A stretch of 61,346 bases of DNA from Candidatus Jorgensenbacteria bacterium (GTDB lineage Bacteria > Patescibacteriota > Minisyncoccia > UBA6257 > GWB1-50-10). A model generated the notes under the pieces. The model searched no databases, was not told the DNA's origin, and was given only the letters and a program-made list of their open reading frames with translations. Below, one piece after another: positions 1-13,282 of this stretch. Each line of letters begins with the position of its first letter. The first letter of the stretch is position 1. The stretch is from positions 1 through 61,346 of the forward strand of contig JAZDFV010000003.1 of the NCBI GenBank assembly GCA_043807585.1, in the 5' to 3' direction. The translations under genes and the position numbers were made by a program.

Positions 1-129
1 ACGCGATCGCGTTTTAATGTGATAAAAATATGAAAGCCCTAAGATTCTGTAGAACCAAAGGGCTTTTTGATACATTACTACTTCACCAGCACCATCCACT
101 TTGTTTCGGTGAAAGCGCCGGCTTTCAGC
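1..129. repeat. 129-bp perfect direct repeat of 9034-9162 (palindrome half, terminator, CTD 3' end)
   Basis: Base-by-base comparison with 9034-9162; first mismatch at 130/9163. Confidence 0.9.
33..66. terminator. Hairpin terminator downstream of CTD tail 1
   Basis: aaagccct...agggcttt stem followed by T-tract; identical copy at 9066-9099. Confidence 0.75.
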
Positions 130-170
130 CGATAGAAATAGATGCCGCTGGGATATTTCTGTGCGTCCCA
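78..170 (-). pseudogene. Orphan 3' fragment of T9SS type A CTD (tail 1)
   Basis: Translates WDAQKYPSGIYFYRLKAGAFTETKWMVLVK*; in-frame TGA a few codons upstream; matches C-terminus of 9111-10406. Confidence 0.9.
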
Positions 171-181
171 GGAAATCTGCA

Positions 182-373
182 TCAATGGACCCTCGGATCA
201 TCGTAGTTCTCACTCGATACAATCGAGGAAGATGCGAGGCTGGGGAGAAACTCTCTGCCTCCACCGCAGGTTGGACATATTTCTGTTCTGCCCAAACTGT
301 TCTTGTATTCCTCTCCGCGGCAGGTGGGGCAATCTCCCGGTCTCAGGAGAAAATCGCGCGCTATTTCAGACAT
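182..373 (-). CDS. 63-aa Cys-rich peptide with two CPTCxG motifs (zinc-finger-like, Z1)
   Basis: ORF with AAGGTG-like RBS and upstream sigma70-like promoter; positional and motif counterpart at 11097-11294. Confidence 0.65.
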   Translation of the reverse strand: MSEIARDFLLRPGDCPTCRGEEYKNSLGRTEICPTCGGGREFLPSLASSSIVSSENYDDPRVH

Positions 374-455
374 ATCATCACCTTATTGATTGTTTGAGTC
401 GTAAAAAGTCAATCTTAAACCTTCTGAAAAGAAGAATACGCCGCTTCTAATGCTT

Positions 456-491
456 GTCAAATTCCACGGGCCTTAGCCCGTGGAATTTGAC
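456..491. repeat. Perfect 16-bp-arm hairpin (ccacgggc-ctta-gcccgtgg, IS200/IS605/REP-like) whose arms carry TTGAC boxes
   Basis: gtcaaattccacgggc / gcccgtggaatttgac read directly. Confidence 0.75.
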
Positions 492-560
492 TTAACCACC
501 GAAACTAAGTAATGTTGCTATAGTAATTTCTCAGGCATCACAATTATAGGAGAAACGCGT

Positions 561-686
561 ATGGAAAAACAAACTAGTGGTTGTCCGGAAAGAATTGACG
601 GAAACTCCATTGATTACCAGGCAGGAGAGCCGCAAGAAAGGGCGGGAGATCCCGATATCACGAATGTTGATTGTGAAAATTTCTAG
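561..686 (+). CDS. 41-aa acidic peptide MEKQTSGCPERIDGNSIDYQAGEPQERAGDPDITNVDCENF (IDY peptide 1)
   Basis: Below ORF-track cutoff; AGGAG RBS, TTGACT-17-TAATGT promoter, terminator behind it; resembles 11612-11752. Confidence 0.7.
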   Translation: MEKQTSGCPERIDGNSIDYQAGEPQERAGDPDITNVDCENF

Positions 687-730
687 TTTCGCACAATTCG
701 GGTGTGCTATGGTCACGCCCGTGCAATATT

Positions 731-768
731 AAACCCGTAACGCATGTCAATGACCACGTTACGGGTTT
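731..768. terminator. Terminator between convergent peptide and rSAM genes
   Basis: aaacccgtaacg...cgttacgggttt plus T-tract. Confidence 0.8.
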
Positions 769-791
769 TTTTGTCTCCCTTAAAATGACGT

Positions 792-1883
792 TCAGATTCC
801 TTCATTTGCTTTCAACTTCTCCTCAAGGATATTGAAGACCGCCTTGCGAGAGCCACAGTAAAAATATTTATCACCCATACTGCCATCTGCCGATAAATTC
901 CGGTAATCCGTACAGCCACCATGGCATATGGAAAACCAGTGGCAACCCAAACAACCAGTTGGGGGTTTCCTCACGGACAACAAAAATTGTCGGTAATTCT
1001 CACCTTGCAATATGTCGATAAGCCGTTCGGAAAGAATGTTGCCAAGAACGTCGGCTTCACCATTTCTGCTATGACATGGCCTCACATTTCCACTAGGGTA
1101 AATATCTAAGAACTGCTCGCATAGGCCGGAGTAGATACAAGCGGACGGATTGCCACCAAGCATGCCACGCATCGGGTCAATGAACTGTCTTATTTCGACT
1201 GTCGGATCATCTTCTTCAAGCCAGATGAGAAGTATCTTTTCCAGAAAAGTGGAGAATGCGGGATCACTGACTGAAAAGTCGCATACATTTCCCTCATTAT
1301 CCATTTCAAAAGCAGGATTAAACGCCATCTTTTTTACTCCAACATCCTTCAGAAAGCGATAAATCTCTTCAGGAAAATTAGCGCTGTGGGAAGTGACAAC
1401 AGTGATTGTACCGAAATTCAATTCCTCTTCCCGACAATATCGTATACCACGCATAACCTGCGGAAATGATCCCTGTCCACCGACAGCTTTCCTATAATAA
1501 TCATGGATTCCTTCCGGGCCATCAATACTAATACCAACCCGAAAATTGTTCTCCTTAAAAAACCTCGCCCATTTCTTATCAATTAGAACTCCGTTGGTCT
1601 GGACGCCGTTTATAATGTGGGTATTTTCTTTTTTGTATCTCCCTTGAAATTTTAGGGCGGTGCCAAAAAAGTCCATACCTGCCAGTAGCGGCTCGCCGCC
1701 ATGCCAAAGGAAATTACAGGAATCACTATTTATTTCAAGAATCTGCTCTGTTAATTTCTCTAACACTGACAGCGGCATTATACTATCGGATTTCACATTC
1801 TGATCCATGTATCTGTAGAAACAATAGGCGCAACGCAAATCACAGGCGATGTCAGCGCATTTGATTATAGGAAATACTTTCAT
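792..1883 (-). CDS. Radical SAM/SPASM enzyme, anaerobic sulfatase maturase-like (family includes peptide cyclophane maturases)
   Basis: CDLRCAYC, FLWHGGEPLL, QTNG, ISIDGP and SPASM Cys clusters; start MKVF at 1883 with AAGGAG RBS. Confidence 0.9.
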   Translation of the reverse strand: MKVFPIIKCADIACDLRCAYCFYRYMDQNVKSDSIMPLSVLEKLTEQILEINSDSCNFLWHGGEPLLAGMDFFGTALKFQGRYKKENTHIINGVQTNGVLIDKKWARFFKENNFRVGISIDGPEGIHDYYRKAVGGQGSFPQVMRGIRYCREEELNFGTITVVTSHSANFPEEIYRFLKDVGVKKMAFNPAFEMDNEGNVCDFSVSDPAFSTFLEKILLIWLEEDDPTVEIRQFIDPMRGMLGGNPSACIYSGLCEQFLDIYPSGNVRPCHSRNGEADVLGNILSERLIDILQGENYRQFLLSVRKPPTGCLGCHWFSICHGGCTDYRNLSADGSMGDKYFYCGSRKAVFNILEEKLKANEGI

Positions 1884-1965
1884 GACCGTGCTCTCCTTTT
1901 TTGGGGTTGGTAAAAAACTTGCTTTACTGTAAAACAAGAGCTCTTTCACGTCAATACCGAGGTAA

Positions 1966-2277
1966 TGTGCAAGGACATTTGGCACCATGCGAGATATGCT
2001 CGGCACATGGCAATCAACATAGCATCGTCCACTACCTAATTGACCTCGGCAAGCCTGCCTAGAACGGCATCGTGGAACGCTCCCACCACTCCGAATCAGG
2101 AGTCCTTCTACGACCGGAACGTCTTCGCCTCGCTCCCCAAGTTGCGCCGGAAGCTGCGGGTGTGGAATACTCGGTACAACAACCTTGTGCACTGCGGGCT
2201 GAACGGTCGGAGCCCGAATCAATATCTTACCAAATATACCCCGTCACCGACGGTGCCAAATGTCCGTGCCTAAAACA
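1966..2277 (+). mobile_element. Internally deleted IS481-like element with frameshifted integrase-core C-terminus
   Basis: NGIVERSHHS/(D)QESFY...WNTRYNN...GLNGRSP; 18-bp inverted repeats with 1 mismatch at 1969-1986 and 2252-2269; TGT...ACA ends. Confidence 0.7.
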
Positions 2278-3261
2278 TTTCCTGTTTACCAAAATATTGA
2301 GAAAACTATGAACAAATTTCAGAAAATCCTTATCCACCCCTCTATGATTAAAGTGATAGAAGGCAACCACCGGGTACAGTTCCCATACCAATACTTTCAT
2401 TAAATCGTCGTAATTATCAAACTTCACATTAGGGCGCTTTAGGAGAACATCGGTCGTCGGTTCGTAGGCTCTAAAGACTCCAGAACAGAAATAACCAAAA
2501 GGAGCGCAGGATTCGGTTATTATTTCCTGTAAGAAATTTTTAGGTTCGCGGTCTTTTGATATAAAACGTGGCAGAGCCAATTTATTATCTCGTAAGAACC
2601 GAGACAAGATACGTTGTATAGGATTACCATCAACGAATGTATGAGCGGCCTCATGCGCAAGCACACTGACGCCACTGCCGACGTTCCAATCATTGAGTTT
2701 AAACACGGGGACTTCAAGAGTTATATCGTCTTTTCCAAGATTAGCGCCGCCCGAAACAGACCGTTTTATCGAGGGAGACGCTATAAGATGCACCTTCATC
2801 AATTTTGACGATTTGCCTCCCAAGAAATGCTCTATGCCCGCGAACATGTTTCTAACATTATCTTTGCGCAACTCCCCGTCTATTTTTCGTTGCCAATTCT
2901 TGATCGCAAGTTGCTCCCAAGTCTTCTCAAATCTTGGTGTAAATATGTGGAATGCCTCCTTTACTATTTGTAAATCATCTCCGTCTAAGAATTCGGTGAT
3001 TGCCTTCCACTTCCTTCCCTCGGTGGGAATAAAAAATGGCATTCCGAGATAAATGGATTTCCCATTCCTGTAGGAAAAACCGCGTTGTTGCATTACTGCC
3101 TTAAACCGGCGCAAAGATTTTTTCTCTCCGTTACTTAGCGGTCCGGTTAACGCCTGGCATGCCTCATTGTAATCAAGACGACAAGAAAAATGCCATTCCG
3201 ACAAGTTGGAAATGAAGAAGAAGAGATTCTCTGTTTTTGAAATGACAAATCGGAATTTCAT
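2227..3261 (-). CDS. Hypothetical HExxH-motif protein (metallopeptidase or peptide-tailoring enzyme)
   Basis: 344-aa ORF with LAHEAAHT; lies between precursor and rSAM; last ~16 aa derive from the IS relic. Confidence 0.7.
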   Translation of the reverse strand: MKFRFVISKTENLFFFISNLSEWHFSCRLDYNEACQALTGPLSNGEKKSLRRFKAVMQQRGFSYRNGKSIYLGMPFFIPTEGRKWKAITEFLDGDDLQIVKEAFHIFTPRFEKTWEQLAIKNWQRKIDGELRKDNVRNMFAGIEHFLGGKSSKLMKVHLIASPSIKRSVSGGANLGKDDITLEVPVFKLNDWNVGSGVSVLAHEAAHTFVDGNPIQRILSRFLRDNKLALPRFISKDREPKNFLQEIITESCAPFGYFCSGVFRAYEPTTDVLLKRPNVKFDNYDDLMKVLVWELYPVVAFYHFNHRGVDKDFLKFVHSFLNILVNRKCFRHGHLAPSVTGYIW

Positions 3262-3328
3262 ACTCTTTATTCTATCAAAAAAACAACCCCTTATGAATCA
3301 GGGGTTGAAAGCAAATCTTCTCTCGTGG

Positions 3329-3493
3329 TTAGTCGACCGCTTTGTCGTGGTCGCCAGTGGAATGGTCGTTGTAGCTTGGTCCGTCGCCGTGGCAAGATAA
3401 CCTTTTCTGGTTAATCTCGGCCCTCACGCGACTGATGATTTTGCTACCGATACCGACCTTCCGCATCGAGTTGCTACTGGAGGTTTGTTCCAT
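3329..3493 (-). CDS. 54-aa putative RiPP precursor, core SCHGDGPSYNDHSTGDHDKAVD
   Basis: Promoter, AAAGGGAG RBS and downstream hairpin (3283-3307); first gene of the operon with HExxH and rSAM. Confidence 0.75.
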   Translation of the reverse strand: MEQTSSSNSMRKVGIGSKIISRVRAEINQKRLSCHGDGPSYNDHSTGDHDKAVD

Positions 3494-3551
3494 GATCGTA
3501 GCTCCCTTTAAGGAAGTGATTGAAAACAGTGAACTAAAACGGACTAAAACT

Positions 3552-3580
3552 AATATACTCTGCGACATTACAAAGGTCAA
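3552..3580 (-). promoter_or_regulatory. Sigma70 promoter TTGACC-17-TATATT for precursor operon
   Basis: Read from reverse complement; lies just past the CTD tail 2 terminator. Confidence 0.7.
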
Positions 3581-3623
3581 CTCCTTAGTTAGGACGCCAA
3601 AAACTCGACAGTTATACAACTCA

Positions 3624-3656
3624 AAAGGGCTGATGAGTTTTTCTCATCAGCCCTTT
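3624..3656. terminator. Terminator after CTD tail 2 (aaagggctgat...atcagcccttt family)
   Basis: Stem family shared with 8946, 10984 and 15205. Confidence 0.8.
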
Positions 3657-3658
3657 GG

Positions 3659-3880
3659 TTACTTGAGCAGAATCATCTTCCTCGTTGCCACGAAGCCGTT
3701 GGCTTCGAAACGGTAGAGATAGACGCCGCTGGGATACTTCTCTGCGTTCCAGACGATCCGGTGGACACCCGCTTCCTTCTCTTCCGCCACGAGTGTTGTG
3801 AGTTCCTGTCCGAGAAGGTTCAGCACGGTGAGTTTCACCGTTGAACGCTTCGGAAGCGCGAACTCAATCGTCGTCGTGGG
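3659..3880 (-). pseudogene. Orphan, nearly complete T9SS CTD fragment (tail 2)
   Basis: Translates PTTTIEFALPKRS...SGVYLYRFEANGFVATRKMILLK*; no start or propeller domain; closest to the C-terminus of 13337-14632. Confidence 0.9.
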
Positions 3881-3959
3881 ATAAATCGCGCCGTCTCACT
3901 CCCTTATATTGGACATATCACCGAAATGGGATTATTTTCAATACAACAAGATTTTAATT

Positions 3960-4490
3960 ATGGAGCTCAAGGAGAGGAATTCGCCTGTTATAAAAGAACG
4001 TTTTTTGCAATTTATCGAGACCTTGCGAGGCAAAATTGTTTTCGCATTTATTTGTGGCAGTGTAGCTAAAAATAGAACCGATGTTGGGAGCGACATAGAC
4101 GTTTTTATATGTGTAAAAGTTCTTGGCGCAGATTTTAAAACGAGATTTAGAAAATGGTATGAGAGAGTTCACCGAGATTTAAAATTTAAACCGGACAACG
4201 TGTTTCCTGGAGAAATCATGACACTGCAAAAACTTGACGCGAATCTGAGGAAGGCACAAAAGAGCACTCCGAACAAAAACATTAAGGATAGAGGTGTACA
4301 TGATGGCGTTGTATGGGCGGGAATGTTGTGTTCAAAAACTTTAGGATTCGTAGGCAATAGAAACGTATTTTTATTGAGAAAAACACTCGCGAAAAAGATT
4401 CTTATCGGGTGGAAGAAAGATTTGATGCAAAAATTTAAAGCGATGAGCTCCGACTCATTTCTCAAGGAAATAGTAAAGTACGAAAAATAA
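3960..4490 (+). CDS. Polymerase-beta-type nucleotidyltransferase domain protein
   Basis: GSVA...SDIDV motif; likely start MELK at 3960. Confidence 0.8.
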   Translation: MELKERNSPVIKERFLQFIETLRGKIVFAFICGSVAKNRTDVGSDIDVFICVKVLGADFKTRFRKWYERVHRDLKFKPDNVFPGEIMTLQKLDANLRKAQKSTPNKNIKDRGVHDGVVWAGMLCSKTLGFVGNRNVFLLRKTLAKKILIGWKKDLMQKFKAMSSDSFLKEIVKYEK

Positions 4491-4497
4491 TAATAGC

Positions 4498-5718
4498 ATG
4501 GTTGGAAACCCAACAATCAAAGAAAAAACGCAAGAGCTCTCTAGTTTATTAGAACTAAAAAGAGAGGATATTATAGAGGTGCTTTTGGAATATGAAAGTT
4601 ATACCACCGCCATTGACGAATTAGAACGCTCACTGAAATGTCTCCACAATATTGATTCAGAGCTCGAATATTTGACATATGGAAAGGTCGATACCATTAG
4701 CGCCTTCTTTCCGTTAAATTTACCTTTGTATTCTACTATATTGTTTGGCGTGGTCCCCGGTTTTATGGCCAACAAAATCTACATAAGGCCACCCTTATTA
4801 ATGCGGGGCGTTCTGCGAAAAATTCACTCACTTCTACATCTAAAAAATGTTTTACCCGACATGAAAATTATTGAGTTGGAGAGGCACCTTTTCCTTGACG
4901 GTTATGCCTCGATTTCCGATGTAATACTTTTCACAGGCAGATACGAAAACGCAAAAGCTGTCGAGGAAAGTTGTATGGCGCCACTCTTCATTTTTAATGG
5001 TGCTGGGATTAATCCTGTTGTGATAACAAAATCTGCCGACATAGAATTAGCCACCCAGAAAACTATGGAGATGAGACTGTTCAATAGCGGCCAAGACTGT
5101 GCTGGACCCGATGCTATCCTAGTTGATCAACGCGTGCTATCAGAATTTATGGGAACCCTACTCAAGAAACTCGCGACTGTGAAAATAGGAAGTTATTTAG
5201 ATAAAAAGGTTCAGGTAGGCAGATTAATAGATAGCAAACACGTTTTATTCATCGGCAAAATTTTAAGCGGATTGAGGGAGAAAATAATATACGGAGGTGC
5301 CGTCAACTACAAAGATTCAATTGTGTACCCGACTGTCATATTGGATACGTTAGAAGATGGAAGTTTAAACTATCAAGAGTTTTTTGCGCCCGTTTTTTAC
5401 GTTCTGCCGTTTACAAACATGGGCAAGCTCGATTCTTATTTTCTTGCCGAAGAATATGTTGATAATGCAATGTACGTTTCCGTATTCGGAGGATCGCCAG
5501 AATATACATCACACATCAAGGGTTCGGTAATATTGAAGGATAAGATAATAAACGATGTAGAAGAAGGCAATAAGCCATATGGAGGCTACGGGGAAAGGGC
5601 GAACTTTGTTGCTTCCAATGGTAAAATGACCCACAGCCCGATTCTAATTTCAAGAACGCTTTGCAATCATCTAAAGTCCTTGCCGCTTAATAAAACCGCA
5701 GTATCAGAACGTTCCTAA
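4498..5718 (+). CDS. Aldehyde dehydrogenase family protein
   Basis: FNSGQDC catalytic Cys, FTG, EFFAPV, PYGGYG motifs. Confidence 0.85.
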   Translation: MVGNPTIKEKTQELSSLLELKREDIIEVLLEYESYTTAIDELERSLKCLHNIDSELEYLTYGKVDTISAFFPLNLPLYSTILFGVVPGFMANKIYIRPPLLMRGVLRKIHSLLHLKNVLPDMKIIELERHLFLDGYASISDVILFTGRYENAKAVEESCMAPLFIFNGAGINPVVITKSADIELATQKTMEMRLFNSGQDCAGPDAILVDQRVLSEFMGTLLKKLATVKIGSYLDKKVQVGRLIDSKHVLFIGKILSGLREKIIYGGAVNYKDSIVYPTVILDTLEDGSLNYQEFFAPVFYVLPFTNMGKLDSYFLAEEYVDNAMYVSVFGGSPEYTSHIKGSVILKDKIINDVEEGNKPYGGYGERANFVASNGKMTHSPILISRTLCNHLKSLPLNKTAVSERS

Positions 5719-5733
5719 ATCGAGACCAAACTT

Positions 5734-6675
5734 ATGCGCCAGCACAAAACAGTCGATAACTCCATTAGCTCGGACGACCTATCTGGGATCAGAAAGCGAT
5801 ACCCGTGGATAAAGATGTTCTCGGGGGACATAGAGTGTTATATACCGCCGGGATATTACGATAAGTTATTAAAAGAATACACCTTCGGTGGCAAGTCAGA
5901 TTTGGATATCTTCCGATTATATTTAAAATCTCTAACACTGAAGCCGGGTTGCCGAGTGTTAGAATTGGGTGGCGGTACGGGGAGAGCGACGAAGGTATTT
6001 CTTGACGCAATAAAGAATTTTGGAGCACTAGACGTAATCGATTTAAGCCCTGGAATGGTGTCCTATTTATCGAGGAGGTTCAGTAGGAATAGAAACGTGT
6101 TGGTTAGGACAGCCGATAATGTAGATTATTTGAACAAAACAAAAAGAAAGTATGATTTGGTGTATAGTCTTTGGAGTTTTTCCCACTCGGCACATCAACA
6201 CATGGCTGACGAGGGGTTAAGAAGGGGGTCAAAATATACTGAAAATTCTCTGGAGGGTTTCATAAAGGGAAACATTAATCCACGCGGAAATTTCTTCGTC
6301 ATGCATTTTGACAGTCTGAGTGAGGAACAGAGAATTCTGATGAAGCAGTGGGCGAAAGATTTTCACATTTTTAAGAAAAGGTCTAGACAGTCACCATCCA
6401 AGCGGTTGTTGGATAAAATCTTGAAAAATCTTAATGGCGTTTATATTCACGGACTCACCACTAAATACTATGCAGGTGACCAAATACTATATAATTCGCT
6501 GGACGAATTATTGGAAATTTTCCTTAATTTCCATATGGAAACGGAATACAACAGAAGCCGTTATCTAAAACGTGCGTTACGCGACATATCGAATGACGCG
6601 CATAAATATTGTCAACCAAACGGCACATACCTCATACGCCCGGGCTGTTTCGTTTATTCGTTCCAGAGATTGTAG
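5734..6675 (+). CDS. Class I SAM-dependent methyltransferase
   Basis: VLELGGGTG, IDLSPGM, YDLVY motifs. Confidence 0.85.
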   Translation: MRQHKTVDNSISSDDLSGIRKRYPWIKMFSGDIECYIPPGYYDKLLKEYTFGGKSDLDIFRLYLKSLTLKPGCRVLELGGGTGRATKVFLDAIKNFGALDVIDLSPGMVSYLSRRFSRNRNVLVRTADNVDYLNKTKRKYDLVYSLWSFSHSAHQHMADEGLRRGSKYTENSLEGFIKGNINPRGNFFVMHFDSLSEEQRILMKQWAKDFHIFKKRSRQSPSKRLLDKILKNLNGVYIHGLTTKYYAGDQILYNSLDELLEIFLNFHMETEYNRSRYLKRALRDISNDAHKYCQPNGTYLIRPGCFVYSFQRL

Positions 6676-6735
6676 AACCTGATGAGATTGTAAAAAGGCA
6701 ACCTTTTGTAGAACATCTTTTTGCATATCAACAAG

Positions 6736-6763
6736 AAAGCCACGGACTCATGCCCGTGGCTTT
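6736..6763. terminator. Bidirectional terminator between methyltransferase and argS
   Basis: aaagccacgg...ccgtggcttt. Confidence 0.75.
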
Positions 6764-6770
6764 TTGAGTG

Positions 6771-8621
6771 TTACATTTTTTCAGGAACTCGAATATTCAT
6801 CAAATTGAGTCCTTTTCGGATGACATTCCTTACTGCGGTGATAAGAAGCACCCTTGAGCGAAGCAAGTTCTCTTCCTCTGTTCTTGAGACCGAAACCTCC
6901 GTGTAAAAATTATTGAAGAGTTGAGCTAACTCTTCAAGATACGAAGCGAGAAAATGTATCGCATCAAACCGCTGGGATTTGATAACTACGAAGGGGAAAA
7001 ACATGAGTTTCTTTGCGAGCTCAAATTCACTCCGCGCCTCGAAGTGGGGCAAGAAATCACGAGCGTTTTTAAGCATCTCCCCATTGATACTTCCAACCCT
7101 TTTTAGTATCGAGTTGATTCTCACGCAAGTGTACTGAAGATACGGAGAGCTGCCACCGTCGAAATTGAGCATCTTCTCCCAATTAAAAGAGATATTCTTG
7201 GTTCGTGATTGCCGAAGGTCGTTGTAAAGTATTGCACCGACCCCAACAATTTCTGATACCCTTCCCGTCTCTTCAGGAGTCATGGAAGAACCTTTCGCGG
7301 ATATAACCGCTCGCGACTTCAAGGTTGCTTGATCAATTAGCTCTTCGAGCTCAACCAATGTACCTTTTCTCGTGGACATTTTCTTTCCCTCGGTGAGAAC
7401 CATTCCAAACCCAACATGTTTGGCTTCCGCACCTGTCAGAAGATTGAGTTCCTCGCCAAGCAAGAACAGTTGTTTGAAATTAAGCTCTTGTTCGCTCCCG
7501 ACAACGTACACAATCACGTTTGGCTTGAATGTCTTGACGCGAAATTTCAATGTTGCTAAGTCTCTGGCTATATACAAAGTCGAACCATCCTGCTTCCTTA
7601 GGAGGAAGGATGGCGCGTCTAGGGAATCTACTATGACAGTTTCTGTTCCCTCTTCTTTTCTGGCGATGCCCTTTTCCAGACATTCTTCTATTGTTTCTTG
7701 TGCCAACTCGGAGAAATATCCTTCTCCTATAGAGGTGTCGAATTGGACTCCGAGTTTTTCGTAGGCCTTCTTAAAATCGGCGACGCTCAGATCTCTGAAT
7801 CTTTTCCACAGCTCAGTGATCCTCGGATCGTGCTTCTCGAGTTTCTTGAATATCTCTCTTGCTTCTATCTCCAACTCCGGGTGCTCCTCCGATTCGCGGT
7901 TAAACCTGACGTACAGATCTTTGAGATCCTTAAGTGAACTTTCTGAGGCGCCTTCTGTTCCTTCTCCCCAGCATTCGTATGCGTAGATAAGCTTACCAAA
8001 CTGAGTCCCCCAATCGCCCAAATGGTTGTCCCTTATCTCCGTATACCCTGTTGCCCGGTACACATTGGCTAGGGCCTGCCCAATGATAGTGGACCGTAAG
8101 TGCCCAACGCCTATCGGTTTAGCTATATTAGGAGCAGAGTAGTCAAAGAGGGCAACCCTTTTTGCGTTAACGTCGCTCTCGCCATATTTCTCTCCTAGAG
8201 AGTCGATGGTCAATAATATCTCAGGGTACAAAGTTTCCGATTCCAGTTCTATGTTGACGAATGGACCCTCGTTTTTTGCCGTCTTGATCCATTTTATGTC
8301 GCTCTGGTTGATCACGGAAGATATGGTTCCCGCGATTTTTACTGGATTCTCTTTTAATGATTTTGCTAATTCGAAAACCGGTAGTGCAATATCTCCACTT
8401 ACATGAGCTGGGGGTATTTCAAGCTCCAATCTTTCTAGCTTCGAGGCGTCAAACCTCTCCCGCAGAACACCCTTAATGGCCCTATCAAGCAGTTCTAGTT
8501 GGTAGCTGTGCAAGGATATATAGGATCTTTCCCTTTTCTCGCTTTCAACCCTTGCCAAAGCTTTCTCGATTGAATCGTCGATCTCGGTCCTATAATCCTC
8601 AAATGGGTCACCTTGCTTCAT
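6771..8621 (-). CDS. argS: Arginyl-tRNA synthetase
   Basis: PNIAK...GHLRSTIIG, HLGDWGTQFG, KMSTRKG, YLQY; start MKQG with GAAAGGAG RBS. Confidence 0.95.
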   Translation of the reverse strand: MKQGDPFEDYRTEIDDSIEKALARVESEKRERSYISLHSYQLELLDRAIKGVLRERFDASKLERLELEIPPAHVSGDIALPVFELAKSLKENPVKIAGTISSVINQSDIKWIKTAKNEGPFVNIELESETLYPEILLTIDSLGEKYGESDVNAKRVALFDYSAPNIAKPIGVGHLRSTIIGQALANVYRATGYTEIRDNHLGDWGTQFGKLIYAYECWGEGTEGASESSLKDLKDLYVRFNRESEEHPELEIEAREIFKKLEKHDPRITELWKRFRDLSVADFKKAYEKLGVQFDTSIGEGYFSELAQETIEECLEKGIARKEEGTETVIVDSLDAPSFLLRKQDGSTLYIARDLATLKFRVKTFKPNVIVYVVGSEQELNFKQLFLLGEELNLLTGAEAKHVGFGMVLTEGKKMSTRKGTLVELEELIDQATLKSRAVISAKGSSMTPEETGRVSEIVGVGAILYNDLRQSRTKNISFNWEKMLNFDGGSSPYLQYTCVRINSILKRVGSINGEMLKNARDFLPHFEARSEFELAKKLMFFPFVVIKSQRFDAIHFLASYLEELAQLFNNFYTEVSVSRTEEENLLRSRVLLITAVRNVIRKGLNLMNIRVPEKM

Positions 8622-8808
8622 TTTATTTCTCCTTTCTTGTACTCTTTTCACGAAGGTTTGTTTTGTTTGTAATAAACTACGGTTAGCGTATCCGGTTTCT
8701 AAGTACTTATCAAGTTAAAGCTTTGAGTCGCCGCAATTGGTTGGTTTGCGCGTCTACGATGATATTCTAATAGAATTTACCGTAGCTGGAAAGAATAACA
8801 AAGACATC

Positions 8809-8863
8809 AAAGCCCGATACGATGATTCGTATCGGGCTTTGTTGTTACTTACTTCACGAGCAC
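8809..8863 (-). pseudogene. CTD micro-tail 3 (VLVK*, 8849-8863) plus terminator 8809-8840
   Basis: Terminator aaagcccgatac...gtatcgggcttt nearly identical to 17691-17722 behind the third full gene. Confidence 0.7.
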
Positions 8864-8877
8864 CCTTCCATCCGCAT

Positions 8878-8913
8878 TACTATCCTATCGGACGATCGTC
8901 CGATAGGATAGTA
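8878..8913. repeat. Perfect 36-bp loopless palindrome centred on CGATCG
   Basis: tactatcctatcggacga|tcgtccgataggatagta. Confidence 0.9.
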
Positions 8914-8945
8914 TGGTTGCTCGGTCACTGTTCTCACGCAACGCA

Positions 8946-8994
8946 AAAGGGCTGATACATATGTATCAGCCCTTTAATAAAGCTACTTCACGAG
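8946..8994 (-). pseudogene. CTD micro-tail 4 (LVK*, 8983-8994) plus terminator 8946-8975
   Basis: ctacttcacgag tail; acgcaaaagggctgat terminator as found after the 138-aa genes. Confidence 0.6.
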
Positions 8995-9018
8995 GGGCAT
9001 TTCCTCCACGGCCTAAAG

Positions 9019-9060
9019 TTTTATCACACTAAAACGCGATCGCGTTTTAATGTGATAAAA
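9019..9060. repeat. 42-bp loopless palindrome (1 mismatch) centred on GCGATCGC
   Basis: ttttatcacactaaaacgcga|tcgcgttttaatgtgataaaa; partial second copy at 1-27. Confidence 0.9.
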
Positions 9061-9110
9061 ATATGAAAGCCCTAAGATTCTGTAGAACCAAAGGGCTTTT
9101 TGATACATTA

Positions 9111-10406: not shown

Positions 10407-10454
10407 GGCAAACCTCCATAACTGATTATTGATGATTTGGTAATTATTTCTATG

Positions 10455-10560
10455 TACATTATACCATAGAACATATCAAAAAGTCAATATTACGACAGTA
10501 GACAACTTTAGCGTCAAGCTGAACCGAGAAAAACCCCATCTGATGTGATATAATTTCGAT
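10455..10560. promoter_or_regulatory. Divergent promoter region, duplicated at 14676-14782
   Basis: TTGACT-18-TATAAT with extended TG on minus strand; extended -10 TGATATAAT on plus strand; 86 bp identical between copies. Confidence 0.75.
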
Positions 10561-10561
10561 A

Positions 10562-10978: not shown

Positions 10979-10983
10979 AACGC

Positions 10984-11089
10984 AAAAGAGCTGATACATT
11001 CTTGTTGTATCAGCTCTTTTGATAAATTTTCACTCCGGCTGAAGTGCCGGAATCTACTTCACCAGAAGCATTTTCACCGACGAAATGAA
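10984..11089. pseudogene. Terminator 10984-11020 plus orphan CTD tail 6 (FISSVKMLLVK*, 11054-11089, minus strand)
   Basis: Translation of reverse complement; same layout at 15205-15300. Confidence 0.75.
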
Positions 11090-11096
11090 TTCGCAA

Positions 11097-11294
11097 TCAA
11101 GACGGTGCCGATTCAGAAATTGCGCCCGTCGCCTCGTTCTTAAAGAGATCGCGGACGGGATCGGGCATTCTGCCAACACCATCACATCCACCACATCGGC
11201 CCCCTTTTTCTCTCTCTTCTCCTGTTCCGTTACAGGCCGGGCAGACAATCCATCCTTCCGGCATAAATGTGCAACATCCAAATTCTCCTAGCAT
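11097..11294 (-). CDS. 65-aa Cys-rich peptide with DnaJ-type CxxCxGxG motifs (Z2)
   Basis: CPACNGTG...CGGCDGVG; AGGAGG RBS. Confidence 0.75.
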   Translation of the reverse strand: MLGEFGCCTFMPEGWIVCPACNGTGEEREKGGRCGGCDGVGRMPDPVRDLFKNEATGAISESAPS

Positions 11295-11537
11295 GGGAAC
11301 CTCCTCGTGAAATTGGAAAGGTTGTTTCTATTTACTCTGCTTACATTACACCACACTAGACATAAGAAAATCAAATTTTTATAAGATGGGGTTTTGTGGC
11401 CCGGCAAACCCAACTATTGGTTTGCAATTCCTGACAAGATCAAGCGTGTCCGCAATATCACTAACCGTGGCCGCATCAACGGCGTCACCAGCGCCAGTCG
11501 CTGGAGAAGGAGCAAATCCAAAGCTCCAGCTAACTAC

Positions 11538-11565
11538 TTGACGAGTTGTTACTATTATGTATAAT
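11538..11565 (+). promoter_or_regulatory. Sigma70 promoter TTGACG-16-TATAAT for the peptide/M16 operon
   Basis: Near-consensus boxes read directly. Confidence 0.75.
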
Positions 11566-11611
11566 GCGAGTAGTATATTTCATAAAACTTTTTGAACGAA
11601 AGGAGGAATGT

Positions 11612-11752
11612 GTGCTGAAAGCAAAACCCGATCAAGAACAAATGCCCGAAACGCCGAATAGGGACCCATCAACGGATGCGATTGATTACCCGCAATCACC
11701 GGAAGGTGGAAGGGAAGAGGAATCTTCCGCGATGGAGAGTGAGTTGTTCTAA
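11612..11752 (+). CDS. 46-aa acidic peptide (IDY peptide 2) MLKAKPDQEQMPETPNRDPSTDAIDYPQSPEGGREEESSAMESELF
   Basis: AAGGAGG RBS with GTG start at 5-nt spacing; shares PE..D.IDY...E(N/L)F with 561-686. Confidence 0.7.
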   Translation: MLKAKPDQEQMPETPNRDPSTDAIDYPQSPEGGREEESSAMESELF

Positions 11753-11830
11753 CCATTCTCAGCGCAATTAAAAGTGTTTTCCGTTCTTGGAGTAACCAAC
11801 TAAATTTCAAAAGGAAAGGAGGTGAAAGCT

Positions 11831-11914
11831 ATGTATCCGAACCAACGTTATAGATCGGACGATCCGCCCGAAGGAACCGTGATGGATGACGACGGCGAAC
11901 CTATCCATGGTTAA
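11831..11914 (+). CDS. 27-aa peptide MYPNQRYRSDDPPEGTVMDDDGEPIHG
   Basis: Ideal AAGGAGGTG RBS; followed by hairpin ~11932-11968. Confidence 0.75.
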   Translation: MYPNQRYRSDDPPEGTVMDDDGEPIHG

Positions 11915-12007
11915 CACTCCCCTCATCATTCCGAACACGATTTATTGTTATTACAGTAAGTCGTGTTTTATTTTGTTATTTCTTAAAATAAGCTATTATT
12001 TTGATTG

Positions 12008-13282
12008 ATGAAGCATTATTCCGGGTCAAAACTTGAGAACGGTCTCACCGTCATTACAAGCGAGGATAAAAACTCTGAAGTCGTTCTTCTCATGGCTGGG
12101 TTTAAGGCTGGGTCACGTTATGAGAAAAAAAATGAGCGCGGCTATGCACATCTTTTAGAACACGTACTCCTCAAGGGTACCAAAAAACGTCCGTCCATTA
12201 CTAAAGTTGGCGAGATAACGGATCAAGCCGGAGCTGATCTGGGAGCCTATACCGACATGGAAAGTGTAGTGGTGCGTCTCCATGCCGCAAAGGAATGGCG
12301 GGAGGGCATGTTTGAACTATTGCTAGATGTTATTGGAAATCCTCTTTTCTCAACGGAAACGCTCAAAAACGAAAAGAATATTGTTATCCAAGAATTACAC
12401 AAATTCCGTGACAATCGAGGACCGCGCCTGTGGTCAGAATCACTAAAACGTCTGTTTGGATCTCACCCGCTCGCACAAAATCCCATCGGGGAAGAGGAGG
12501 TGATTTGTCATGTAACAAGCGCGAAACTCAAAAGCTACTATGAACGATTCTTAACTCCCGATAGGGGCGTAATAATAGCTACCGGGAACGTGAGTCACGC
12601 GGAGATTGTAAAATGGGTATCACAATACGGAAAACCAAAATGGATGCAATCTCGGGGAGCATCCACTCCACTCATATCAGTACACCCGAAATCTGGCACA
12701 GAGTTTATCAAAGAGCCCGGGAACCAAACACAGTTGTTCTTCAATTTTGTTTGTCCCGCGCTTACGCTCAATAAATTGCTGACGTTAGAACTAATTGCAA
12801 ACGCATTTGGATATGGGAATGTCCCAATACTAAAACAGGATTTACGCCACAAAAGAGGGTTGGTGTATGCAATCAGCTCTTACGTGCAAAGATTTCAGGA
12901 TGTAGTTCTATTCTATGTTTCCACCGCGAGTACTGAACCGAAGGAGGTCGTTGAAGCGGTAGTAAAAATATTTGAAAACTTTTTGGACACGTTTCCAGAA
13001 AGCCGATTTGAAGAATTCAAGAAAAAATACAAGAGCGTTTTTCTTCGCAAGCTGAGTGATCCTTTTTACGAAGCCAATCTATTGAAAGATTCTTGGATGT
13101 TTTACGGAAGGTTAGTAACGCCAGAAGAAATTTCCCAAAACATCGAATCGCTGACGTACCATGATGTGGTTAATATGAGAAATCGATATCTTATTAATGA
13201 GAAGCTTTTTATTACGATGTTCGGAGAACGGAATCCTGAAATTAAATTATCGGGACAAAGACAATTTACTTCTCATTCCTAA
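12008..13282 (+). CDS. M16 family zinc peptidase
   Basis: HLLEH inverted zincin motif; R..RGLVY C-domain motif. Confidence 0.9.
   Translation: MKHYSGSKLENGLTVITSEDKNSEVVLLMAGFKAGSRYEKKNERGYAHLLEHVLLKGTKKRPSITKVGEITDQAGADLGAYTDMESVVVRLHAAKEWREGMFELLLDVIGNPLFSTETLKNEKNIVIQELHKFRDNRGPRLWSESLKRLFGSHPLAQNPIGEEEVICHVTSAKLKSYYERFLTPDRGVIIATGNVSHAEIVKWVSQYGKPKWMQSRGASTPLISVHPKSGTEFIKEPGNQTQLFFNFVCPALTLNKLLTLELIANAFGYGNVPILKQDLRHKRGLVYAISSYVQRFQDVVLFYVSTASTEPKEVVEAVVKIFENFLDTFPESRFEEFKKKYKSVFLRKLSDPFYEANLLKDSWMFYGRLVTPEEISQNIESLTYHDVVNMRNRYLINEKLFITMFGERNPEIKLSGQRQFTSHS

What the first reader, a model, noticed from the sequence alone, without database searches (positions are those of the whole stretch)
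182..686. Recurring divergent micro-gene pair (Zn-finger peptide and IDY peptide) at the edge of two cassettes
Seen: the same layout occurs at 78-686 and at 11054-11752. An orphan CTD tail is preceded by a ~64-aa peptide with two CxxCxG motifs, with a divergent 41-46-aa acidic peptide sharing PE..D.IDY...E(N/L)F. DNA similarity is not obvious, but order, size, RBS and motifs are conserved. A possible relic of the Z1 start (ggtgat-atgtc...gcgcgattt) also sits at the tail 2 junction (~3882-3920). Inference: a conserved end module of a cassette family, such as a directionality or regulatory factor plus partner, or a shared precursor family.
Basis: partly seen in the sequence, partly recalled or inferred. 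Interest (0 to 1): 0.7.

Follow-up and report, generated by a model that had tools for sequence, protein, structure and literature searches.

The report
Zinc-knuckle mini-proteins beside acidic mini-peptides
Two tiny genes encode real zinc-binding mini-proteins from a rare, unnamed family that in related uncultured bacteria sits at the end of peptide-modifying gene cassettes, often next to a very acidic mini-peptide. The two "IDY" peptides said to partner them are not detectably related to each other or to anything else.

Summary
The ORFs exist as described.

**Zinc peptides: real genes.**
- Zn1 has an orthologue under strong purifying selection (dN/dS 0.08).
- Zn2 belongs to a family of 61-71-aa proteins.
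- They are the only double-CxxCxG ORFs in the window and are distantly related to each other.
- The Zn2 model resembles an anti-TRAP/DnaJ-type single-zinc knuckle.
- In related groundwater metagenome contigs this gene closes a cassette (radical-SAM/SPASM maturase, Cys/Asp-rich peptide, ~250-aa HExxH protein, Zn knuckle). Elsewhere it sits beside a short, very acidic peptide gene.
- So "end gene of a cassette family" holds for the zinc peptide.

**IDY peptides: not a family.**
- Their similarity is near chance, no relative was found, and none of the seven other Zn contexts has one.
- Both carry promoters, Shine-Dalgarno sites and terminators, and they are the most acidic intergenic mini-ORFs in the window.
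- A looser rule, zinc knuckle plus some acidic mini-peptide, is therefore supported.

**Tails.** The orphan tails are copies of the 3' ends of paralogous BNR surface-protein genes. The Zn genes sit at recombination joints upstream of those genes' terminator hairpins. The proposed Z1-start relic is not significant.

Function is inferred, not shown.

The parts
78..181 (-). Orphan CTD tail 1: the last ~35 codons of a BNR/sortilin-like surface-protein gene. It would form the 3' UTR of Zn1.
   Evidence: Window 1-170 is 95% identical to 9034-9203. Weak Por_Secre_tail hit. The joint with the Zn1 module lies at ~172-181.
182..373 (-). Zn1: 63-aa mini-protein with two CxxCxG motifs (one predicted Zn(Cys)4 knuckle).
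   Evidence: Orthologue P0002 is 87% identical. dN/dS 0.077, and all four Cys are kept through synonymous changes. SD is GGTGAT.
374..463 (-). Zn1 promoter (-35 TTGACA 460-455, -10 TATTCT 438-433) and 5' UTR.
   Evidence: The stretch is 80% identical to L001, against 48% identity at synonymous sites of the ORF. Homology with L001 stops at 463.
456..491 (.). Perfect 16-bp-arm palindrome between the divergent Zn1 and IDY1 promoters. It overlaps both -35 boxes. It could be an operator or an inverted duplication formed at a joint.
   Evidence: -29.5 kcal/mol, z -8.6. Its role is inferred.
561..686 (+). IDY1: 41-aa acidic ORF (net -7, 2 Cys). SD AGGAGA at 548-553. Candidate promoters: TTGACT-17-TAATGT at 487-515, or an extended -10 TGcTATAGT at 516-524.
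   Evidence: No homologue found. Coding status is not shown.
731..772 (.). Hairpin followed by T7. It would terminate IDY1 (+) and also stands after the convergent rSAM gene (-).
   Evidence: -20.7 kcal/mol, z -5.8.
792..1883 (-). Radical-SAM/SPASM enzyme resembling anaerobic sulfatase maturase, DynA and cyclophane-forming maturases. It lies upstream of Zn1 on the same strand.
   Evidence: TIGR03942 301 bits, below the 349 cut-off; DynA 234 bits. Start at M114 read from the sequence.
2227..3261 (-). 344-aa protein with an HEAAH motif and no known family.
   Evidence: Not homologous to the 245-264-aa HExxH family beyond the motif.
3332..3493 (-). 54-aa precursor-like ORF with its own promoter, an SD, and an attenuator-like hairpin before the 344-aa gene. 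It is a better candidate substrate for the rSAM than IDY1.
   Evidence: sequence. No known family. The assignment is inferred.
11054..11075 (-). Orphan CTD tail relic 2 (…KMLLVK*), possibly extending to ~11092. Terminator hairpins follow at 11027-11050 and 10983-11021.
   Evidence: 10998-11075 is 81% identical to 15215-15292. Unit homology ends at 11075/15292. Hairpins.
11097..11294 (-). Zn2: 65-aa mini-protein with two CxxCxGxG motifs.
   Evidence: Five small relatives at 44-59% identity. DnaJ_CXXCXGXG E 0.002, Anti-TRAP 0.018, TIGR02642 9e-7. AF2 and Foldseek. SD is GAGGAGG.
11295..11374 (-). Zn2 5' UTR and promoter region. It resembles the promoter of the paralogous BNR genes.
   Evidence: 11337-11374 is 68-76% identical to 10450-10487 and 14671-14708. 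Alignment A4.
11538..11565 (+). Near-consensus promoter of IDY2 (TTGACG-16-TATAAT).
   Evidence: 11 of 12 matches.
11612..11752 (+). IDY2: 46-aa acidic ORF (net -8, no Cys). GTG start, SD AAGGAGG.
   Evidence: No relative in any fetched locus.
11831..11914 (+). Second acidic mini-ORF, 27 aa (MYPNQRYRSDDPPEGTVMDDDGEPIHG). SD AAAGGAGGTGA.
   Evidence: Not related to the class-B peptides.
11933..11968 (+). Terminator or attenuator hairpin between the two mini-ORFs and the M16 gene.
   Evidence: -19.4 kcal/mol, z -7.6.
12005..13282 (+). M16 (insulinase-type) zinc peptidase with an HxxEH motif.
   Evidence: Peptidase_M16 1.5e-24, M16_C 1.8e-23..

Best explanation
The finding mixes one real, recurring element with one that is not a family.

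**The recurring element.** It is a gene for a 61-71-aa protein whose four cysteines (two CxxCxG(xG) motifs) should hold one zinc ion. The knuckle resembles half of the DnaJ cysteine-rich domain. In the Zn2 model it is followed by a short helix, as in the Bacillus anti-TRAP protein.
- Zn1 and Zn2 are two very divergent versions of this protein.
- In related uncultured (probably ultra-small groundwater) bacteria, this gene is the last gene of a small peptide-maturation cassette: radical-SAM/SPASM enzyme, Cys/Asp-rich precursor peptide, ~250-aa HExxH protein, Zn knuckle. Elsewhere it forms a two-gene unit with the HExxH protein or with a 26-40-aa strongly acidic peptide.
- I infer that it is a protein- or peptide-binding accessory. 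It would act as an escort or holdase for the acidic, often Cys-rich peptide, or as a partner of the HExxH peptidase. I do not think it is an enzyme or a DNA-binding factor.

**In this window.**
- Both Zn genes are separate transcription units at joints between a triplicated backbone and variable cargo. The backbone is a BNR-CTD surface-protein gene plus the 5' end of an fn3/Flg_new gene.
- Each Zn ORF abuts a truncated copy of a BNR gene's 3' end, followed by a terminator-like hairpin. I infer that these hairpins terminate the Zn transcripts. Zn2 also has a BNR-like promoter.
- This explains the 'orphan CTD tail' layout as a by-product of recombination at those conserved gene ends.
- Zn1 still lies downstream of a non-homologous set with the same gene content: 54-aa precursor-like ORF, HExxH 344 aa, rSAM/SPASM.

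**The IDY ORFs.** They are lineage-specific acidic mini-ORFs that look expressed (own promoter, SD, terminator). They are not homologous to each other or to the acidic peptides found near Zn genes elsewhere. At most they fill the same 'acidic partner or cargo peptide' slot.

**Shown:** gene reality, family, contexts, joints. **Inferred:** zinc binding, fold, the binding role, and IDY translation.
For: **Zn1 is a real gene**
- One homologue among 5.8 billion clusters: P0002, 87% identical.
- 22.5 synonymous against 9.5 non-synonymous differences, dN/dS 0.077.
- The promoter and 5' UTR are also conserved. Homology with L001 is confined to window 180-463.

**Zn2 family**
- Five small relatives by full HMMER, with invariant F, P, W, Cys, G and R-x-x-D-P positions.

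**One superfamily**
- Both Zn peptides hit the same segment of TIGR02642.
- P0002 vs P0006 and P0008: z 5.6-6.4, and p 0.001-0.003 with Cys held fixed.
- They occupy the same position in orthologous cassettes: rSAM 86% identical, HExxH 46% identical.

**Fold**
- The AF2 model of Zn2 has a knuckle pLDDT of 84-89 and a helix at 46-57.
- The Foldseek top three hits are anti-TRAP (probability 0.84-0.98), then BSD2 and the DnaJ cysteine-rich domain.
- The best PDB sequence hits are DnaJ CR (E 0.0017) and anti-TRAP.

**Contexts**
- L001, L010, L013-L018, L007/8, L009, L011/12, L019.

**Acidic neighbours**
-.
- The class-B peptide is conserved next to Zn in three lineages.

**Joints and backbone**
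-.

**IDY expression signals**
-.
Against: - No RNA or protein evidence. No run holds copy 1, and only low-depth DNA contigs identical to the window cover copy 2.
- Profile-profile comparison of the Zn1 pair with the Zn2 family aligns only 9 columns (probability 38%). Homology therefore rests on weak pairwise statistics plus position.
- The Zn1 model is poor (pLDDT 60.8). No Foldseek hit reaches E 0.001.
- In L014-L018 no acidic mini-ORF lies near the HExxH-Zn pair. In L007 and L011 no maturase is near. The Zn gene is therefore tied to no single partner.
- The window's 344-aa HExxH protein and its rSAM are not homologous, or only distantly related, to those of L001/L010.
- Only about ten loci are known, all from metagenomes.
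Confidence: 0.55

Rival explanations
1. Zn peptide and IDY peptide are a homologous, co-inherited divergent gene pair that marks the end of mobile cassettes, for example a recombination directionality factor plus partner.
For: - The same order, sizes and RBS occur at two sites.
- Both Zn ORFs abut CTD relics.
- Only two segments in the window end in E[NL]F, and both contain IDY. The motif was chosen after seeing the sequences.
Against: - IDY similarity is not significant.
- No IDY relatives were found.
- None of the other Zn loci has an IDY-like or divergently placed acidic ORF.
- L001 carries the Zn1 unit without IDY and without a CTD relic.
- There is no integrase or att-like repeats. The Zn proteins are acidic and resemble protein-binding knuckles rather than excisionases.
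Confidence: 0.05
2. The Zn peptides are themselves ribosomal peptide precursors. The conserved N-terminal zinc-knuckle would act as a 'leader' and the hypervariable C-terminal ~20 residues as the core, processed by the neighbouring HExxH or M16 peptidase.
For: - In the Zn2 family, residues 1-46 are conserved up to GR(M/I)PDP. The tails differ in sequence and length.
- Between L007 and L009 the Zn 3' half has diverged within flanks that are 89-91% identical.
- The HExxH gene directly precedes Zn in three lineages.
- Structured leaders have precedents (Nif11 and NHLP leaders; own knowledge).
Against: - The Zn1 tail is under purifying selection rather than diversifying (6 synonymous vs 3 non-synonymous codon changes in residues 44-63).
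- The rSAM cassettes already carry an obvious Cys/Asp-rich precursor directly after the maturase.
- Zn genes in L007, L011 and L019 have no maturase or peptidase nearby.
- The tail is modelled as a helix like that of anti-TRAP.
Confidence: 0.1
3. Zn knuckle plus acidic mini-peptide is a two-component antagonistic pair, such as a small toxin/antitoxin or peptide/immunity pair. Its partner is swapped by recombination.
For: - Nearly identical Zn genes are followed by unrelated acidic peptides: class C in L009 and class B in L019.
- The variable segment is flanked by conserved DNA.
- Each unit has its own promoter and terminator.
Against: - No hit to any PADLOC or toxin-antitoxin family.
- Both partners are acidic.
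- In several loci the Zn gene stands without such a partner.
- The window's pairs are divergent, not operonic.
Confidence: 0.1
4. The IDY ORFs are not genes. They are chance ORFs in promoter-rich joint DNA, or short non-coding transcripts, so the 'pair' is only Zn genes next to junk.
For: - No homologues found and no comparative signal.
- A 41-46-codon open frame is not rare.
- IDY1 lies between a convergent rSAM gene and a joint, where L001 has different DNA.
- The 54-aa ORF at 3332-3493 is a better precursor candidate for that cluster.
Against: - Both have an SD at correct spacing, a promoter (11 of 12 matches for IDY2) and a strong hairpin terminator immediately downstream.
- They are the two most acidic of only 7 such ORFs in 61 kb, and both lie within 320 nt of the only two Zn genes. 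My rough estimate for that coincidence is p about 0.002.
- Acidic mini-ORFs with strong SDs recur next to Zn genes elsewhere.
Confidence: 0.2

Closest known systems
Anti-TRAP (RtpA, PF15777), Bacillus subtilis and B. licheniformis; PDB 2bx9, 3ld0, 3lcz
   Same: - A stand-alone ~53-aa protein.
- One zinc is held by two CxxC(xGxG) pairs, followed by a C-terminal helix.
- It is acidic and works by binding another protein.
- It gives the top three Foldseek hits for the Zn2 model and weak Pfam and PDB sequence hits.
   Different: - Scores are below the family cut-off (15.5 vs 32 bits).
- The conserved N-terminal F-(L/M)-P-E-G-W and the GR(M/I)PDP motifs are not anti-TRAP features.
- No T-box leader was detected near either Zn gene, and no TRAP (mtrB) gene was seen among the neighbouring genes examined.
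- The genomic partners here are HExxH, rSAM and acidic peptides.
DnaJ cysteine-rich domain (PF00684; PDB 1exk) and plant DnaJ-like zinc-finger chaperones such as BSD2 (PDB 6ekb, 8ilb)
   Same: - The CxxCxGxG motif and spacing are the same (CPxCxGxG…CxxCxGxGR).
- It is the best PDB sequence hit (E 0.0017), and Foldseek hits 4-6 and 12.
- These domains bind unfolded or assembling client proteins (own knowledge).
   Different: - There are only two motifs (one zinc site) instead of four.
- There is no J domain.
- Scores are below the gathering threshold (12.6 and 18.8 vs 32.7).
- The client is unknown.
TIGR02642 / CHP02642 (PF27659), an uncharacterised phage-associated protein family of ~267 aa
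   Same: Both Zn1 and Zn2 match the same zinc-finger segment, profile positions 182-219 (E 0.003 and 9e-7). P0006 and P0013 carry a weak precomputed PF27659 hit.
   Different: - The match covers only 37 of 267 profile positions, and scores are far below the cut-off (28.8 vs 101.4).
- No phage context: PHROGs gives only weak motif hits and the viral contig scans were empty.
Ranthipeptide/SCIFF-type radical-SAM clusters (PapB family NF047865, ScfB), relevant to the cassette that the Zn gene closes in L001 and L010
   Same: - An rSAM/SPASM enzyme with an N-terminal extension.
- It is followed at once by a 40-42-aa peptide rich in Cys and Asp/Glu.
- The best NCBIfam hit is PapB.
   Different: - The score of 143.6 is far below the 340 cut-off.
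- The extra HExxH and Zn-knuckle genes are not part of described ranthipeptide clusters, to my knowledge.
- No product is known.

Membership tests
DnaJ central cysteine-rich domain (PF00684) | Four CxxCxGxG repeats forming two zinc centres | tested here: not met
   Exactly two motifs per protein.
DnaJ central cysteine-rich domain (PF00684) | Pfam gathering score of 32.7 bits | tested here: not met
   Zn1 scores 12.6 bits and Zn2 18.8 bits. The best family member reaches E 6.6e-5.
Anti-TRAP (PF15777) | Pfam gathering score of 32 bits | tested here: not met
   Zn2 scores 15.5 bits. Three of 6 family members hit, best E 5.9e-4. Zn1 has no hit.
Anti-TRAP (PF15777) | Fold: a single Zn(Cys)4 knuckle followed by a C-terminal helix in a ~50-65-aa protein | tested here: inconclusive
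   The AF2 model of Zn2 has mean pLDDT 70.7, a knuckle at 84-89 and a helix at 46-57. The Foldseek top hits 3ld0 and 2bx9 have probability 0.96-0.98 but E 0.05-0.09 and TM 0.43-0.53. The Zn1 model is too poor to use.
Anti-TRAP (PF15777) | Genetic setting: T-box-regulated rtpA operon in an organism with TRAP | tested here: not met
   The only Rfam hits in the window are tRNAs. The neighbouring genes are unrelated.
TIGR02642 / CHP02642 | Full-length match above 101.4 bits | tested here: not met
   Scores of 17.3 and 28.8 bits over profile positions 182-219 only.
RiPP precursor peptide (applied to IDY1 and IDY2) | Encoded beside and co-oriented with a maturase or peptidase, often with an attenuator between them | tested here: inconclusive
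   IDY2 and the 27-aa ORF lie upstream of M16 on the same strand with a hairpin between them. IDY1 is convergent with the rSAM gene, and that cluster has a better candidate at 3332-3493.
RiPP precursor peptide (applied to IDY1 and IDY2) | Homologues with a conserved leader and variable core; a known precursor family | tested here: not met
   No homologues. No NCBIfam or Pfam family.
RiPP precursor peptide (applied to IDY1 and IDY2) | Post-translational modification by the neighbouring enzyme | not testable with these tools
   Needs co-expression and mass spectrometry.
T9SS-type C-terminal sorting domain (PF18962), applied to the 'tails' | C-terminal ~75-aa domain above 27 bits at the end of a secreted protein | tested here: met
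   The three intact 431-aa BNR proteins score 32.9, 33.3 and 37.2 bits. The relics alone score 15-20 bits, but two of them are DNA copies of those gene ends (95% and 73% identity).
Recombination directionality factor / excisionase | Small DNA-binding protein next to an integrase and att sites of a mobile element | tested here: not met
   No integrase lies in 1-19 kb, only an rve_3 fragment (E 0.019). The Zn proteins are net -3 and -4 and resemble protein-binding knuckles. No flanking direct repeats specific to the cargo were found.
PapB-family ranthipeptide maturase (NF047865), applied to the rSAM of the L001 and L010 cassettes | Equivalog score of 340 bits | tested here: not met
   143.6 bits. 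It is the best hit but far below the cut-off.

The most novel reading that the evidence does not exclude
The zinc-knuckle mini-protein and a short, strongly acidic (often Cys/Asp/His-rich) peptide form a previously undescribed two-part small-protein module of ultra-small groundwater bacteria. The knuckle protein would be a dedicated escort or recognition factor for ribosomal peptides, used with or without a radical-SAM maturase and an HExxH peptidase. The peptide partner would be exchanged freely by recombination, here by capture into the expression signals of decayed surface-protein genes.
Probability: 0.25. Interest if true: 0.65.

Novelty: new variant of a known kind. Interest (0 to 1): 0.45.

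Why it matters
- The zinc-knuckle gene is an unnamed family. No Pfam, NCBIfam, PHROG or PADLOC model reaches threshold.
- It appears again and again at the end of small peptide-maturation cassettes in poorly known bacteria.
- If it is a peptide escort or a partner of the HExxH peptidase, it would add a new accessory component to radical-SAM peptide biosynthesis. It would also be a useful marker for finding such cassettes and their very short, unannotated precursor genes.
- The locus shows how conserved 3' ends of surface-protein genes can act as landing sites that supply terminators, and in one case a promoter, to incoming small genes.
- On the negative side, the 'IDY family' should not be propagated as a peptide family.

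Tried and rejected
**Searches that found nothing useful**
- The word-index homologue search found nothing for Zn2 and only the self-hit for IDY1.
- Genome and metagenome scans with Zn1 returned only motif-level false hits. These were the FlhC C-terminal CxxC…CxxC in a Steroidobacteraceae MAG and high-GC frames.
- Viral contig scans for Zn2 and for the Zn2 family were empty.
- Rfam found only tRNAs, so no riboswitch or leader lies near the micro-genes.
- PADLOC and PHROGs found no defence or phage family for Zn, HExxH or IDY.
- Sequencing-run search found no RNA data and only identical low-depth DNA.
- Three literature searches found no paper linking CxxCxGxG mini-proteins to rSAM clusters.

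**Ideas tested and rejected**
- IDY ORFs lie antisense to a decayed HExxH gene: rejected. tblastn found no relic.
- The window's 27-aa ORF belongs to the conserved class-B peptide family: rejected (p 0.1-0.6, no profile hit).
- The 344-aa HExxH protein is related to the 245-264-aa family: rejected.
- The palindromes reflect HIP1-like GCGATCGC enrichment: rejected (3 sites against 2.3 expected).
- A Z1-start relic sits at tail 2: rejected.

**Technical limits**
- MAFFT misaligned the second CxxC in the three-sequence Zn alignment A1. That alignment was used only for the Zn1 model.
Full report
**1. What is at the coordinates**

| | Zn peptide | Acidic peptide | Start-to-start distance |
|---|---|---|---|
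| Copy 1 | Zn1, 182-373(-), 63 aa: …DCPTCRGEEYKNSLGRTEICPTCGGG… | IDY1, 561-686(+), 41 aa | 187 nt |
| Copy 2 | Zn2, 11097-11294(-), 65 aa: …VCPACNGTGEEREKGGRCGGCDGVG… | IDY2, 11612-11752(+), GTG start, 46 aa | 317 nt |

In each copy the two genes are divergent. A further 27-aa acidic ORF follows IDY2 at 11831-11914(+).

All of them have Shine-Dalgarno sequences at proper spacing:
- Zn1: GGTGAT.
- Zn2: GAGGAGG.
- IDY1: AGGAGA.
- IDY2: AAGGAGG.
- 27-aa ORF: AAAGGAGGTGA.

Promoter and terminator signals:
- The consensus scan finds TTGACA-16-TATTCT for Zn1.
- It finds TTGACG-16-TATAAT for IDY2.
- IDY1 has TTGACT-17-TAATGT, or an extended -10 (TGcTATAGT), read from the sequence.
- IDY1 is followed by a strong hairpin plus T7 (-20.7 kcal/mol, z -5.8).
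- The IDY2/27-aa pair is followed by another hairpin (-19.4 kcal/mol, z -7.6).
- A perfect 16-bp-arm palindrome (456-491) lies between the two divergent -35 boxes of copy 1.

**2. Is it more than chance?**

*Zn peptides: yes.*
- The double CxxCxG pattern occurs only twice in the six-frame translation of all 61 kb, in these two ORFs.

*IDY similarity: no.*
- BLASTP gives E 0.66.
- Shuffle tests give p 0.07-0.74 for local and 0.02-0.09 for global alignment.
- The motif PE..D.IDY...E(N/L)F was read off after the fact. By my estimate, two peptides of this size share some tripeptide by chance about one time in three.
- IDY1 has no relative among 5.8 billion protein clusters.
- Neither IDY has a relative in any related locus.

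*Placement of the acidic ORFs is unusual.*
- Among SD-preceded ORFs of 20-60 aa in the window, only 7 have net charge of -4 or lower.
- The two most acidic (-7 and -8) are IDY1 and IDY2. A third is the 27-aa ORF.
- All three lie beside the only two Zn genes.

*The 'Z1 start relic' at 3882-3920 is not above background*.

**3. The Zn peptides are real genes of one rare family**

*Zn1*
- It has one homologue, P0002 (87% identity), on contig L001.
- The two genes differ at 22.5 synonymous and 9.5 non-synonymous positions (dS 0.89, dN 0.068, dN/dS 0.077).
- All four cysteine codons are kept through TGC/TGT changes.
- DNA homology between L001 and the window is confined to 180-463. This covers the ORF, its 5' UTR and the promoter. 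The upstream part is 80% identical, which is better conserved than the ORF's synonymous sites.

*Zn2*
- A full HMMER search of 1.84 billion representatives found five small relatives of 61-71 aa at 44-59% identity.
- Invariant positions are F10, P12, W15, four Cys-motif positions, G41, R42, D45 and P46.
- The C-terminal tails are variable.

*Link between the two types*
- Profile-profile alignment of the Zn1 pair with this family aligns only the CPxCxG motif (probability 38%).
- Both peptides hit the same zinc-finger segment of TIGR02642.
- P0002 is significantly similar to P0006 and P0008 even when the cysteines are held fixed in the shuffles (p 0.001-0.003).
- The shared features extend to F-L-(x)-P-E before the first motif and G-R after the second.

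**4. Context in relatives**

| Locus | Zn type | Gene order |
|---|---|---|
| L001 | Zn1-type | BNR gene(-) ◄► rSAM/SPASM 460 aa, 42-aa Cys/Asp-rich peptide, HExxH 253 aa, Zn, terminator, large fn3/Flg_new protein |
| L010 | Zn2-type (P0006) | Orthologous cassette: rSAM 86% identical, homologous 40-aa peptide, HExxH 46% identical, Zn |
| L013-L018 | Zn2-type | HExxH 245-264 aa, then Zn; no rSAM |
| L007/L008, L019 | Zn2-type | Zn, then a 26-27-aa peptide with a strong SD, then a terminator |
| L011/L012 | Zn2-type | The same peptide family lies 985 nt from Zn |
| L009 | Zn2-type | Zn about 90% identical to that of L019 (read from the two sequences), followed by an unrelated 40-aa acidic peptide |

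- The L007/L019/L011 peptides form a conserved family, DCxCGxSDCxGxGGDHG (z 8.8 and profile hits). The L007 and L019 members are MWRGSDDCICGSSDCEGPGGDHGDEGE and MKGPEDCPCGDSDCEGPGGDHGDEGE.
- So the Zn gene recurs as the terminal gene of a peptide-maturation cassette, or paired with HExxH or with an acidic mini-peptide.
- A strongly acidic SD-bearing mini-ORF lies within 1 kb of Zn in 8 of 9 contexts, counting the window's two.
- These peptides fall into at least five unrelated sequence classes.
- The IDY peptides are two singletons.

**5. What the protein looks like**

- Pfam hits are weak and below threshold: DnaJ_CXXCXGXG in 4 of 6 family members (best E 6.6e-5) and Anti-TRAP in 3 of 6.
- The best PDB sequence matches are the DnaJ cysteine-rich domain (E 0.0017) and anti-TRAP.
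- The AF2 model of Zn2 (mean pLDDT 70.7; 84-89 over the knuckle) shows a β-hairpin knuckle followed by a helix at 46-57.
- Its top three Foldseek matches are anti-TRAP structures (probability 0.84-0.98; E 0.05-0.17). BSD2 and the DnaJ cysteine-rich domain follow.
- None of these matches is statistically strong, and the Zn1 model is poor.
- Both proteins are acidic (net -3 and -4, counted from the sequence). That does not suggest DNA binding.

**6. Why the layout recurs in this window**

*Composition and backbone*
- The first ~18 kb has 40-48% GC, against 55-61% in the rest of the window.
- It holds three ~75%-identical backbone units: U1 9093-11075, U2 13314-15292 and U3 17716-19569.
- Each unit carries a 431-aa BNR/sortilin-like protein with a Por_Secre_tail C-terminal domain.
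- Each also carries, divergently, the 5' end of an fn3/Flg_new gene. Only U3 has the full 1009-aa gene. The 138-aa ORFs in U1 and U2 are truncated copies.

*Cargo between the units*
- 11076-13313: Zn2, IDY2, the 27-aa ORF and M16.
- 15293-17715: S66 peptidase and a second rSAM/SPASM gene.

*CTD relics*
- Short relics of the BNR 3' end occur at 78-181, 3659-3838, about 8848, about 8984, 11054-11075 and 15271-15292. At most of these sites a terminator-like hairpin lies beside the relic.
- The relic beside Zn1 is a recent copy (95%) of 9034-9203. It starts exactly at the window's first base, so the contig ends in a repeat.
- Zn1's stop codon abuts that relic. The homology with L001 ends at 180.
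- Zn2's stop lies 21 nt from the shared unit boundary at 11075/15292.
- Zn2's promoter is 68-76% identical to the BNR promoters.

*Reading*
- The Zn ORFs sit inside the remains of BNR expression units at recombination joints. That accounts for the 'orphan tail preceded by a Zn peptide' without any dedicated end module.
- The two copies share no DNA similarity although the units are ~75% identical. They are therefore separate acquisitions, not duplicates.

**7. Neighbours of copy 1**

Upstream of Zn1, on the same strand, lie in order:
- A 54-aa ORF (3332-3493) with promoter TTGACC-17-TATATT, SD AAGGGAG and a hairpin plus T7 before the next gene.
- A 344-aa HEAAH protein (2227-3261).
- A weak rve_3 fragment on the other strand.
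- An rSAM/SPASM enzyme (792-1883). It is closest to anaerobic sulfatase maturase (301 bits, below the 349 cut-off), DynA and cyclophane-forming maturases.

What this means:
- The gene content (precursor, HExxH protein, rSAM, Zn) parallels the L001/L010 cassette with parts that are non-homologous or only distantly related.
- The 54-aa ORF has a C-terminal CHGDGPSYNDHSTGDHD stretch. It is a better substrate candidate for this rSAM than IDY1, which is convergent with the enzyme.

**8. Mechanism proposed, and its status**

*Shown*
- The Zn genes are real and under selection.
- They form one rare family.
- They recur at the end of rSAM/HExxH cassettes or next to acidic mini-peptides.
- They lie at joints with BNR gene ends.

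*Inferred*
- One Zn(Cys)4 site and an anti-TRAP/DnaJ-like fold.
- A role as a binding accessory, either an escort or holdase for acidic, often Cys-rich ribosomal peptides, or a partner of the HExxH peptidase.

*IDY1 and IDY2*
- They are probably expressed, lineage-specific acidic peptides that may occupy the 'acidic partner or cargo' slot.
- Their translation, and any link to the rSAM or M16 enzymes, are untested.
- They are not a sequence family.

**9. Limits**

- There is no expression evidence.
- About ten related loci are known, and all come from metagenomes.
- The organism is unknown. Type IV pilus genes and scattered tRNAs in the window, and relatives recovered from 0.1-µm groundwater filtrates, fit a CPR-like bacterium. 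This was not tested.

Noticed in passing
window 3332-3493 (-): A 54-aa ORF (MEQTSSSNSMRKVGIGSKIISRVRAEINQKRLSCHGDGPSYNDHSTGDHDKAVD) has its own promoter, a strong SD and a hairpin plus T7 before the 344-aa HExxH gene. It looks like the precursor peptide of the anSME/DynA-like rSAM cluster. Its His/Tyr-x-x motifs are in the style of cyclophane peptides.
   Followed up: partly
window 16427-16456 (-): A 9-codon ORF (MLKGHLCEP) with a near-perfect SD (GGAAGGAGGTGATGA) lies directly after the second rSAM/SPASM gene (16488-17591). A terminator and an S66 LD-carboxypeptidase (MccF-like family) follow it.
   Followed up: no
window 9093-11075, 13314-15292, 17716-19569: A backbone unit is triplicated at ~75% identity: a BNR/sortilin-like CTD protein plus the divergent 5' end of an fn3/Flg_new gene. 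The 138-aa ORFs at 10562-10978 and 14783-15199 are truncated copies of the 1009-aa gene at 19123-22152.
   Followed up: yes
window 8797-9100: Gene-end relics and hairpins are stacked here. There are copies of the U3 and fn3' terminators, each followed by a few CTD codons (8848, 8984). There are also perfect palindromes at 8878-8913 and 9019-9060, both centred on CGATCG. The stack looks like scars of repeated recombination at BNR 3' ends.
   Followed up: partly
window 1-18000 vs 18000-61346: GC content steps from 40-48% to 55-61% at about 18-19 kb. The low-GC part holds all cassettes, but also an arginyl-tRNA synthetase (6771-8651).
   Followed up: no
window 1-170: The window (the whole contig) begins exactly at a 95% repeat of 9034-9203. 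The assembly probably broke at this repeat, so what lies to the left of Zn1's tail is unknown.
   Followed up: no
window 2040-2273 (+): A possible relic of the C-terminal end of an rve-type transposase (rve_3, E 0.019) lies between the 344-aa gene and the rSAM gene.
   Followed up: partly
window 9111-10406, 13337-14632, 17734-19029: Por_Secre_tail (T9SS-type) C-terminal domains occur in a genome whose other genes and relatives suggest a CPR-like, ultra-small bacterium. Such bacteria are not known to have a T9SS (own knowledge). The taxon was not established.
   Followed up: no
L007 5652-5897 vs L009 1407-1708; L019 1260-1390: Between flanks that are 89-91% identical, the 3' half of the Zn gene and the downstream mini-peptide gene differ completely. 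Nearly identical Zn genes (L009, L019) carry unrelated partner peptides. This looks like a local recombination hot spot.
   Followed up: partly
L007, L009, L019 (e.g. L009 1753-1795; L007 2440, 6754, 6995, 8228): A ~36-nt intergenic repeat (…ccggttcaaaaattttaaggggatttta…) occurs many times in these genomes, often just after terminators.
   Followed up: no
L014 1288-2735: An ATP-grasp MvdD-type ligase with a 55-aa acidic ORF beside it (microviridin-like arrangement) lies 5 kb from the HExxH-Zn pair.
   Followed up: no
L001 5556-6011: A Phd/ParE-like toxin-antitoxin pair lies directly downstream of the BNR gene in the relative's locus.
   Followed up: no
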